Part shown: one piece after another, positions 42,588 to 43,464 of the stretch
Layout: each line of letters starts with the position of its first letter
Position numbering within the stretch: position 1 is the stretch's first letter
Virus record (IMG/VR): IMGVR_UViG_637000107_000010
Length of the DNA stretch: 64,000 nucleotides
From: a virus
Lineage: Duplodnaviria > Heunggongvirae > Uroviricota > Caudoviricetes
Direction: 5' to 3' (one strand)
Position numbers and translations under genes: made by a program
The notes under the pieces: generated by a model
Told to the model about the DNA's origin: nothing
The model's database searches: none
What the model saw: only the letters and a program-made list of their open reading frames with translations

Positions 42588-42722
42588 AGGCTTTTTATTT
42601 GTGGTAAATGGGCGGCTGGTGGGGGGGGCGGCACCTGTCAGTCCTTTGCTTATGTGTTGATGATAATTTACCTTTTGGGGCTATAATTGAGCTAACCAAT
42701 TGCTAATGAAAGTAAAATTATA

Positions 42723-43436
42723 ATGGCTGTTGTCTGTTCAGTTATCATGGTTTGCTCCCCAATTAATATTTTTCTTGAAAAGGATACGTTGTCACTTAAG
42801 CCAGGCTCAGTCGTTCTGGCCACCAAATGCATCAGGGAGCTTTTCCTTATGCATTATGGCAAAGTTAAAATTGTCGATATAAGCNAATCCGTCGTAAGTC
42901 AATATCTGGAAAGTCAGCATAAGCTGACGAGGACTCGTCTGACTGACATTCCGCTTTACCTGTTNCTGGAACCCAACAANCCTGCGTTGGCTGCGGCTTT
43001 AATTACCAGCCAGGGATTTTCCGGAGAGGTCACGGATATGTTTCTTATGATGGCCTGCCTGTCTCTGTTTGAAACAGATGAACGGATGTCATTGTTTTTA
43101 AGTGGATGTTTATCCAGCATAAGTGCCAAAGTCAGGGCGATAATTCAGACAGATATATCAGCAAGCTGGACGCTTGGTGCGATTGCTCTACAGTTGCATA
43201 TGAGTGAGAGTTTGTTAAAGACAAAACTGAAAAATGAAGGGGGCATGTTCAGTCGCTTGTTGCTGGAAGAGCGGATGCGTGTTGCTGTAAATATGTTATG
43301 TTCCCGGTATGGATATGGACAGGCTGTAGCAGAAAAATGTGGTTATTCAAGCCGGTCCTACTTTATTTCTGTATTTCACCGCTATTATGGCTTCCCGCCA
43401 GACAGATATGTATCCAGGCAAGGGCTTGATTATTGA
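42723..43436 (+). CDS. AraC/XylS-family transcriptional regulator (237 aa), AT-rich cargo gene
   Basis: C-terminal AraC-type double HTH (LGAIALQLHMSESLLKTKLK ... GYSSRSYFISVFHRYYGFPP); occupies the slot of the P1 methyltransferase. Confidence 0.75.
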   Translation: MAVVCSVIMVCSPINIFLEKDTLSLKPGSVVLATKCIRELFLMHYGKVKIVDISXSVVSQYLESQHKLTRTRLTDIPLYLXLEPNXPALAAALITSQGFSGEVTDMFLMMACLSLFETDERMSLFLSGCLSSISAKVRAIIQTDISASWTLGAIALQLHMSESLLKTKLKNEGGMFSRLLLEERMRVAVNMLCSRYGYGQAVAEKCGYSSRSYFISVFHRYYGFPPDRYVSRQGLDY

Positions 43437-43464
43437 TTTTCATCTGATTATTATTTTTTGGCTC

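What the first reader, a model, noticed from the sequence alone, without database searches (positions are those of the whole stretch)
42600..43440. Variable cargo slot between the Q-region and the tRNA genes: AraC-family regulator in P2, DNA methyltransferase in P1
The flanks are near-identical between the two prophages (small conserved gene on the left, tRNA pair on the right). P1 carries an orphan DPPY-type methyltransferase (15296..16354) with no restriction partner; P2 carries an AT-rich AraC/XylS-family regulator. Prophage-encoded AraC-like regulators in EHEC are known to act on host virulence and acid-resistance genes, so this gene could be a host-directed regulator.
Basis: partly seen in the sequence, partly recalled or inferred. 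Interest (0 to 1): 0.5.

Follow-up and report, generated by a model that had tools for sequence, protein, structure and literature searches.

The report
Known prophage regulator PsrB in cargo slot
The AraC-type gene is intact and is the already characterised prophage regulator PsrB of E. coli O157:H7, which switches on the host's acid-resistance genes; it sits in a well-known swap-in slot of lambda-like prophages, so the finding is correct but ordinary.

Summary
A 237-codon ORF (42723..43436, +) encodes an AraC/XylS-family protein. It lies between a conserved 65-codon ORF and a tRNA-Ile(CAU)/tRNA-Arg(UCU) pair. In the other prophage the same slot holds a 352-aa DPPY methyltransferase (15296..16354).

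The three N bases are only sequencing ambiguities. The 877-bp slot matches many complete O157:H7 and O121 genomes at 874 of 877 positions, and the ORF is intact there (WP_000301797.1). In resequenced EDL933 this exact protein lies in the second of two tandem prophages beside ompW, which is O-island 57. Reviews place PsrB (z2104) on that island. PsrB is reported to bind the gadE and hdeA promoters, raise acid resistance and indirectly repress type III secretion.

The protein is 91% identical to Sakai ECs1087 (called psrA), 37% to the PatE candidate and about 30% to YdeO, GadX, GadW and AppY over full length.

Among 80 related viral contigs the slot holds psr (33), the methyltransferase (37 full-length, 1 truncated remnant) or no cargo (3); 6 contigs ended too soon. 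Stx2 phages use the same slot upstream of stx2. The P1 enzyme is of the M.EcoGII type.

Verdict: already known, low interest.

The parts
42723..43436 (+). psrB coding sequence (237 aa AraC/XylS-family regulator; N at 42885, 42965, 42980)
   Evidence: ORF. Pfam HTH_AraC and HTH_18 above cut-off. The DNA matches O157:H7 and O121 genomes apart from the 3 N. The protein is WP_000301797.1, found in EDL933 O-island 57.
42660..42687 (+). Sigma-70-like promoter candidate for psrB (ATGATA-16-TATAAT), inside the cassette
   Evidence: Consensus scan, 10 of 12 matches. The scan count is not significant on its own: 3 sites found, 2.6 expected. The 135 nt upstream of psr are 97% conserved among four psr alleles whose coding regions are about 91% identical. 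Function is inferred, not shown.
42623..43455 (+). psr cassette: the roughly 830-bp segment that replaces the methyltransferase cassette of P1
   Evidence: P1/P2 alignments. Consensus junctions from 34 psr-type and 30 methyltransferase-type slots. G+C is 42.4%.
42588..42622 (+). Shared left junction (AGGCTTTTTATTTGTGGTAAATGGGCGGCTGGTGGG)
   Evidence: Identical in P1 and P2. It is the only part of the slot that matches 19 Stx2 and lambdoid phage records. It is the consensus in both cassette classes.
42390..42587 (+). Conserved 65-codon ORF on the left of the slot (WP_000917763.1; weak TrmB-like winged-helix similarity)
   Evidence: Annotated in EDL933 and PA20. Pfam TrmB E = 0.0066, below cut-off. 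At least 586 IMG/VR stretches encode a relative, and the best 80 are 95-100% identical.
42237..42268 (+). Strong intrinsic terminator downstream of the Q-like gene (tR'-like)
   Evidence: Fold of -18.2 kcal/mol, z = -5.0, followed by a U-tract. P1 has a terminator of different sequence at the same position (14793-14828, z = -5.8).
41599..42165 (+). Q-like late antiterminator gene (DUF1133, weak Phage_antitermQ match)
   Evidence: Pfam DUF1133 at 349 bits and Phage_antitermQ at 33 bits. The Sakai annotation calls the homologue 'phage antiterminator'.
43465..43540 (+). tRNA with CAU anticodon (ileZ-type tRNA-Ile2), right boundary of the slot
   Evidence: ARAGORN and Rfam tRNA. Annotated as tRNA-Ile/ileZ in EDL933 and Sakai.
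43641..43717 (+). tRNA-Arg (UCU), argO-type
   Evidence: ARAGORN, Rfam and Sakai annotation.
43730..43749 (+). Terminator-like hairpin after the tRNA pair
   Evidence: Pattern scan. Fold of -14.6 kcal/mol, z = -2.1.
15296..16354 (+). P1 cargo: orphan beta-class N6-adenine DNA methyltransferase (DPPY ... FxGxG), M.EcoGII-like
   Evidence: ORF. Pfam N6_N4_Mtase at 149 bits. It corresponds to WP_000935548.1 / ECs_1780 'DNA methylase'. It is 94% identical to the phage 1720a-02 methyltransferase, which PMC5778455 calls very similar to M.EcoGII.
14948..15145 (+). P1 copy of the conserved 65-codon ORF
   Evidence: Alignment with P2 and annotation as WP_000917750.1.
16395..16470 (+). P1 tRNA(CAU), right boundary of the P1 slot
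   Evidence: ARAGORN.
16551..16627 (+). P1 tRNA-Arg (UCU)
   Evidence: ARAGORN.

Best explanation
The ORF at 42723..43436 is psrB (EDL933 z2104). It is a prophage-borne member of the YdeO/GadX/GadW/AppY branch of the AraC/XylS family.

Mechanism as published, not tested here: its C-terminal double helix-turn-helix domain binds the gadE and hdeA promoter regions of the host acid-fitness island. This raises GadE-dependent (AR2) acid resistance. Through GadE and YhiF it indirectly represses LEE type III secretion.

Anatomy shown here: psrB is one of two main alternative cassettes occupying a fixed slot in the late operon of lambda-like prophages. The other is an M.EcoGII-type orphan adenine methyltransferase. 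The slot runs from a 36-nt junction after a conserved 65-codon ORF to just before ileZ-type tRNA-Ile.

Inferred: in the lysogen psrB is transcribed from its own AT-rich promoter inside the cassette. The gene also lies downstream of the Q-like antiterminator gene and a tR'-like terminator, so late transcription would read through it on prophage induction.
For: Identity. DNA 42588-43464 matches many complete genomes at 874 of 877 positions, the three differences being the N bases. 726 of 5426 genomes carry a copy covering at least 80% of it.

Location. The protein equals WP_000301797.1, found at 1905274-1905987 of resequenced EDL933, in the second tandem prophage next to ompW. Window 1-19019 and 22857-44624 are 99.8% collinear with those two prophages. 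tblastn finds only this one AraC-like gene in the window. Reviews place PsrB = z2104 on O-island 57 and describe its gadE/hdeA binding and acid-resistance phenotype (PMC10877973, PMC8565820, PMC10057817).

Relatives. It is 215/237 (91%) identical to Sakai ECs1087, which PMC13502914 calls psrA. This matches the published 90% PsrA-PsrB identity.

Family. Pfam HTH_AraC and HTH_18 score above cut-off. It gives a full-length but sub-threshold match to the NCBIfam YdeO model. It aligns over full length with YdeO, AppY, GadX, GadW and the PatE candidate. The best solved-structure hit is the GadX DNA-binding domain.

Slot..

Transcription signals. Terminators after the Q-like genes and a conserved promoter-like element.
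Against: No experiment was done here. The function is taken from reviews, because the primary papers (Tree 2011, Yang 2015) were not held.

The reviews report that deleting psrB had little effect on secretion and that most phenotypes come from induced expression. Native expression level and cue are therefore open.

The promoter call is a consensus match that is not significant on its own.

The z2104 label is inferred from island location and the 90% identity figure, not from a record carrying that locus tag. The original EDL933 record is not in the collection.
Confidence: 0.9

Rival explanations
1. The gene is functional, but in this prophage it is essentially silent cargo. H-NS/Hha would silence it in the lysogen, and it would be made only as part of the Q-dependent late transcript. 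Any effect on host acid-resistance genes would then occur in induced or specially cued cells rather than constitutively.
For: The cassette is AT-rich, 42% G+C against 50.5% for the window. The gene sits downstream of the Q-like gene and a strong tR'-like terminator, in the late-operon orientation. In Stx2 phages the same slot lies between Q and stx2. Reviews report little phenotype for a psrB deletion and use induced expression (PMC10877973). The paralogue psrA responds to the anti-Hha sRNA HnrS (PMC13502914). The methyltransferase in the same slot is reported unexpressed in lysogens (PMC5778455).
Against: A conserved promoter-like element lies inside the cassette. The paralogue PsrA has a deletion phenotype according to PMC10877973. 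This reading is compatible with the main explanation rather than exclusive of it.
Confidence: 0.3
2. The gene is the paralogue named PsrA, or another psr allele, rather than PsrB. The name would be wrong although the family assignment stands.
For: Locus bookkeeping in the literature is inconsistent. Reviews put psrA = z1789 in O-island 50 (CP-933N). Resequenced EDL933 CP-933N has no psr homologue. A 2026 paper equates psrA with ECs1087 in Sp4 (PMC13502914). I could not read a record with Z locus tags.
Against: The window is collinear with the ompW-adjacent O-island 57 prophages. It has only one AraC-like gene. The ECs1087-type allele, 91% identical, sits in CP-933M/Sp4 next to pchA.
Confidence: 0.05
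3. The ORF is a decayed or mis-sequenced pseudogene.
For: It contains three N bases. The surrounding assembly is imperfect: it carries 93 N, a frameshifted TerB-like gene, and a junction found in no complete genome.
Against: The N bases resolve to sense codons. The 237-codon ORF is intact and identical in hundreds of complete genomes. 33 of 80 IMG/VR loci carry full-length copies at 90-100% identity.
Confidence: 0.01

Closest known systems
PsrB (z2104, O-island 57, E. coli O157:H7 EDL933)
   Same: The protein sequence is identical at every determined residue. The prophage context in EDL933 is the same: DUF968, RusA, DUF1133 Q-like gene, 65-aa ORF, psrB, tRNA-Ile, tRNA-Arg, TerB-like gene.
   Different: Nothing apart from the three ambiguous bases in the window.
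PsrA-type allele (Sakai ECs1087 in Sp4; EDL933 WP_000261909.1 in CP-933M)
   Same: It is 91% identical over all 237 residues. It occupies the same slot, with the same left junction and upstream region (97% identical). Reviews report the same GadE/YhiF route.
   Different: It lies in a different prophage with a different Q type and three tRNAs (ileZ-argN-argO), and pchA is nearby. Its deletion is reported to have a secretion phenotype, unlike that of psrB (PMC10877973).
PatE (z0321, O-island 8; candidate Sakai ECs0287)
   Same: It shows full-length homology and the same AraC architecture. Its reported target is the same hdeA promoter segment, -132 to -45 (PMC10877973).
   Different: It is only 37% identical. 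It is 247 aa long and lies at the end of the Sp1/CP-933I remnant, not in the Q-tRNA slot.
Chromosomal and DLP12 acid-resistance regulators YdeO, GadX, GadW and AppY (E. coli K-12)
   Same: They share the AraC/XylS sub-branch and align over full length at 29-33% identity. The YdeO model matches residues 1-229. All act on gadE / AR2 (PMC10057817).
   Different: The match is below the equivalog cut-offs: YdeO 106 bits against 348, GadX 87 against 500. The gene is a paralogue, not an orthologue, and it is carried as phage cargo.
M.EcoGII / M.EcoGI and the phage 1720a-02 methyltransferase (for the P1 cargo)
   Same: It is a beta-class enzyme with DPPY near the N-terminus and FxGxG near the C-terminus. 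It is 352 aa long and 94% identical to the 1720a-02 enzyme. It is prophage-borne and has no endonuclease partner.
   Different: I did not compare it directly with the M.EcoGII sequence. Non-specific adenine methylation is not shown for this copy.

Membership tests
AraC/XylS family transcription regulators | C-terminal DNA-binding domain of about 100 aa with two helix-turn-helix motifs | tested here: met
   Pfam HTH_AraC scores 49.9 bits (cut-off 26.6) and HTH_18 scores 37.6 bits (cut-off 33.6), at residues 155-230. The GadX DNA-binding domain 3mkl matches at E = 2e-18.
PsrB (EDL933 z2104) | Sequence identity with the AraC-like gene of O-island 57 | tested here: met
   874 of 877 nt match, the rest being N. 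The protein is WP_000301797.1 at 1905274-1905987 of NZ_CP008957. It is the only AraC-like ORF in the window.
PsrB (EDL933 z2104) | Location on the ompW-adjacent prophage pair (O-island 57) | tested here: met
   Window 1-19019 and 22857-44624 are 99.8% collinear with EDL933 1842735-1861749 and 1885420-1907174.
PsrB (EDL933 z2104) | The locus tag z2104 attached to this very ORF in the original record | not testable with these tools
   NC_002655/AE005174 is not in the collection. The assignment rests on the reviews PMC10877973 and PMC8565820.
PsrB (EDL933 z2104) | Binds the gadE and hdeA promoters and raises acid resistance | not testable with these tools
   Reported in PMC10877973, citing Yang 2015 and Tree 2011. 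The primary papers were not held.
YdeO (NCBIfam NF007407 equivalog) | Score at or above the curated cut-off of 348 bits | tested here: not met
   106.1 bits, although the match spans residues 1-229 against model positions 1-230 of 253. It is 29% identical to K-12 YdeO. It is a paralogue, not YdeO.
GadX (NCBIfam NF007432 equivalog) | Score at or above the curated cut-off of 500 bits | tested here: not met
   87.3 bits, covering the C-terminal half only.
PatE | Near-identity with the AraC-like gene of O-island 8 / Sp1 | tested here: not met
   37% identity to ECs0287, the only regulator candidate at the end of Sp1.
Beta-class N6-adenine DNA methyltransferase, M.EcoGII-like (P1 cargo) | N6_N4_Mtase domain with the motif order DPPY, then target-recognition domain, then FxGxG | tested here: met
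   Pfam PF01555 scores 149 bits. DPPY is at residues 35-38 and FMGSGS at about 310-315 in the translation.
Beta-class N6-adenine DNA methyltransferase, M.EcoGII-like (P1 cargo) | Sequence-independent adenine methylation | not testable with these tools
   The link is only indirect: 94% identity to the 1720a-02 enzyme, which PMC5778455 calls very similar to M.EcoGII.

The most novel reading that the evidence does not exclude
The Q-to-tRNA slot behaves as an exchangeable-cassette site with fixed junctions: a 36-nt left junction and a right junction just before ileZ. The same junctions are shared by cryptic effector-carrying prophages and by inducible Stx2 phages.

Two consequences would follow. 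First, psr alleles could be mobilised together with stx2, as in phiSTEC1575-Stx2k. Second, because the slot lies downstream of tR', the Q antiterminator would switch psr on during prophage induction. That would couple induction to activation of GadE and shut-down of type III secretion in the induced subpopulation.
Probability: 0.25. Interest if true: 0.35.

Novelty: already known. Interest (0 to 1): 0.12.

Why it matters
It matters little as a discovery. PsrB and its paralogues are already established examples of prophage regulators that take over the host GAD acid-resistance circuit and thereby tune type III secretion in EHEC. The methyltransferase family has also been described.

The useful outputs are practical:
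- The three N bases do not disrupt the gene.
- The exact cassette boundaries are now defined.
- psr and the M.EcoGII-type methyltransferase are alternative occupants of the same slot that lies upstream of stx2 in Stx2 phages.
- Locus bookkeeping for psrA in the literature does not match the resequenced EDL933 genome.

Tried and rejected
- Primary papers: I tried to read Yang 2015 (PMC4288888), Bender 2012 (PMC3416394) and Tree 2011 by DOI. None is held, so function is cited from reviews.
- Original EDL933 record: NC_002655 is not in the collection, so the Z locus tags could not be read directly.
- Cluster look-up of the exact protein gave only generic names such as 'helix-turn-helix domain-containing protein'.
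- CP-933N (O-island 50) as the home of a psr gene: rejected for the resequenced EDL933, which has no homologue there.
- Sakai Sp10 as the home of psrB: rejected. Its Q-like gene is followed directly by the tRNAs.
- PatE identity: rejected at 37%.
- YdeO or GadX orthology: rejected, below the curated cut-offs.
- Locating the sRNA HnrS (PMC13502914) in the Q-terminator interval: the paper text gives no sequence or coordinates, so this was not resolved.
- Structure prediction and the large protein database searches were not run, because the verdict does not depend on them.

Full report
**1. What is in the sequence**

- The coordinates given (42600-43440) contain one long ORF, 42723..43436 on the + strand, of 237 codons.
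- It scores above the curated Pfam cut-offs for both AraC-type helix-turn-helix models.
- It is AT-rich: 43.7% G+C for the gene and 42.4% for the cassette, against 50.5% for the window.
- It contains three N bases, at 42885, 42965 and 42980.
- To its left lie a Q-like antiterminator gene (DUF1133, with a weak Phage_antitermQ match; 41599..42165) and a strong intrinsic terminator (42237-42268; z = -5.0).
- Next comes a conserved 65-codon ORF (42390..42587).
- To its right lie tRNA(CAU) and tRNA-Arg(UCU), followed by a terminator-like hairpin.
- In the other prophage of the window the same neighbours flank a 352-aa methyltransferase at 15296..16354. It has DPPY near the N-terminus and FxGxG near the C-terminus, and no endonuclease gene is nearby.

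**2. The flanks**

- P1 and P2 are about 98% identical across the small ORF and for 36 nt after its stop codon. They then diverge.
- Homology resumes 10-15 nt before tRNA-Ile.
- Further to the left the two prophages are only 86% identical. 'Near-identical flanks' is therefore true only close to the slot.
- The psr cassette is about 830 bp (42623-43455). The methyltransferase cassette is about 1200 bp.

**3. Identity of the gene**

- The 877-bp slot sequence matches many complete O157:H7 and O121 genomes at 874 of 877 positions. The three mismatches are the N bases.
- In those genomes the ORF is intact and annotated as WP_000301797.1. The N bases resolve to E55, L81 and N86.
- In resequenced EDL933 (NZ_CP008957) this exact protein lies at 1905274-1905987, in the second of two tandem prophages that start next to ompW.
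- Window 1-19019 and 22857-44624 are 99.8% collinear with these two prophages.
- This region is O-island 57. Two reviews place PsrB (z2104) there and describe it as 90% identical to PsrA (PMC10877973, PMC8565820).
- The window holds only one AraC-like gene.
- That gene is 215/237 (91%) identical to Sakai ECs1087, which a 2026 paper calls psrA (PMC13502914).
- I therefore identify the ORF as psrB.
- The one step I could not check directly is the locus tag, because the original EDL933 record is not held.

**4. Family placement**

- The protein gives a full-length match to the NCBIfam YdeO model (residues 1-229), but at 106 bits against a cut-off of 348. The match to GadX is 87 bits against 500.
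- In a seven-protein alignment it is 91% identical to ECs1087, 38% to ECs0287 (the PatE candidate at the end of Sp1; 37% by BLASTP), 29% to YdeO, 29% to AppY, 30% to GadX and 33% to GadW. All align from the first residues onward.
- The best solved-structure match is the GadX DNA-binding domain.
- It is thus a paralogue within the acid-resistance branch of the AraC/XylS family, not an orthologue of any K-12 member and not PatE.

**5. How it works**

The published account, taken from reviews, runs as follows.
- PsrB binds the gadE promoter and the -132 to -45 segment of the hdeA promoter.
- It raises AR2-dependent acid resistance and improves passage through the mouse stomach when induced.
- Like PsrA, it represses LEE type III secretion indirectly, through GadE and YhiF.
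- Deleting psrB alone has little effect on secretion (PMC10877973; also PMC8565820, PMC10057817).

What I add from the sequence is inference about expression.
- A sigma-70-like element (ATGATA-16-TATAAT, 42660-42687) lies 35 nt upstream of the start codon, inside the cassette.
- The 135 nt upstream of psr are 97% conserved among four alleles whose coding regions are about 91% identical.
- The scan result is not significant by count alone (3 sites found, 2.6 expected).
- The gene also lies downstream of the Q-like gene and a tR'-like terminator, in the late-operon orientation. Q-modified transcription should therefore read through it on induction.
- That is the established arrangement for stx2, which sits just beyond the same slot in Stx2 phages.

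**6. The slot**

- I fetched the 80 IMG/VR loci that best match the small ORF and scored what lies between it and tRNA-Ile.
- 33 carry a psr allele (90-100% identical; gap about 876 nt).
- 37 carry the full-length methyltransferase (gap 1249 nt where the tRNA is present).
- 1 carries a truncated methyltransferase remnant.
- 3 have neither cargo nor tRNAs, although 4 kb of downstream sequence is available.
- 6 end too soon after the small ORF to be scored.
- Consensus junctions are the same in both main classes.
- In Stx2a_1447 and phage 1720a-02 the methyltransferase occupies the slot just upstream of stx2 (preceded there by ileZ-argN-argO in Stx2a_1447).
- In phiSTEC1575-Stx2k a psr homologue (91.6% identical) does so.
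- Sakai Sp9 carries the methyltransferase and Sp4 the psrA-type allele.
- In Sakai Sp10 the Q-like gene is followed directly by the tRNAs.
- The 'variable cargo slot' is therefore real and widespread.

**7. The P1 enzyme**

- It is 94% identical to the phage 1720a-02 methyltransferase.
- Murray et al. describe that enzyme as very similar to M.EcoGII, the non-specific adenine methyltransferase. M.EcoGII is prophage-borne and silent in lysogens (PMC5778455).
- 'Orphan, no restriction partner' is correct and already described.

**8. Verdict**

- Every element is already known: PsrB, the psr family on effector prophages, the M.EcoGII-type methyltransferase, and the ileZ/argO tRNAs.
- Interest is low.
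- The most novel reading left open is that the slot is an exchangeable-cassette site shared with Stx2 phages, and that Q-dependent read-through couples prophage induction to psr expression.

Noticed in passing
window 18000-24000 (junction near 19019-22857): The join between the two prophages is not found contiguous in any of 5426 complete E. coli genomes. Compared with resequenced EDL933, about 20 kb of P1 late genes are missing. The window also has 93 N, concentrated in repeated prophage segments. This looks like a collapsed repeat in the source assembly, or else a unique deletion.
   Followed up: partly
window 43815-44319: The TerB-like gene after the tRNAs is split into two overlapping ORFs in the window. 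It is an intact 432-bp gene (WP_001302123.1) in resequenced EDL933 and in PA20. The split is probably a sequencing error in the window. P1 lacks this TerB/DUF3927 insert, so it is a second variable segment just right of the tRNAs.
   Followed up: partly
window 44488-44680 (+) and 44681-44742 (-); also 16737-16945 (+) and 16947-17006 (-): Rfam finds the sRNAs STnc100 and AgvB (the anti-GcvB sRNA) just downstream of each tRNA pair. The interval between Q and the lysis genes therefore carries several host-directed regulators.
   Followed up: no
window 42181-42268 and 14740-14828: A 42-nt block conserved between P1 and P2 follows each Q-like gene. Each block is followed by a strong terminator, and the two terminators differ in sequence. 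If transcription starts near 42203 the product would be about 66 nt, like the pR'-derived sRNA StxS or the 66-nt prophage sRNA HnrS. I could not obtain the HnrS sequence to test this.
   Followed up: partly
L003 (NZ_CP008957 1625001-1675000) and L095 (1250001-1290000): Reviews place psrA (z1789) in O-island 50 / CP-933N. The resequenced EDL933 CP-933N has no psr homologue and no tRNAs after its Q gene. The 91%-identical allele (WP_000261909.1) lies in CP-933M, next to a PerC/Pch regulator, as ECs1087 does in Sakai Sp4.
   Followed up: partly
L007 (phage phiSTEC1575-Stx2k, 4137-6460): An inducible Stx2k-converting phage carries a psr homologue immediately upstream of ileZ-argN-argO and stx2k. 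A psr allele can therefore travel with a Shiga toxin gene.
   Followed up: partly
window 42390-42587 and 14948-15145: The conserved 65-codon ORF to the left of the slot has only a weak TrmB-like winged-helix hit (E = 0.0066). At least 586 IMG/VR stretches encode a relative, and the best 80 are 95-100% identical. Its function is unknown.
   Followed up: no
L094 (Sakai Sp10, 25011-25957): In Sakai Sp10 the DUF1133 Q-like gene is followed about 140 nt later by ileZ4 and argO4. There is no small ORF and no cargo, so this is an 'empty' version of the region.
   Followed up: no
window 38995-39169 (+), 31733-31784 (-), 22406-22522 (-): Rfam hits to sok antitoxin RNA, DicF RNA and the ALIL pseudoknot (the frameshift element of IS3-family transposases). 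All are ordinary lambdoid-prophage and IS features.
   Followed up: no
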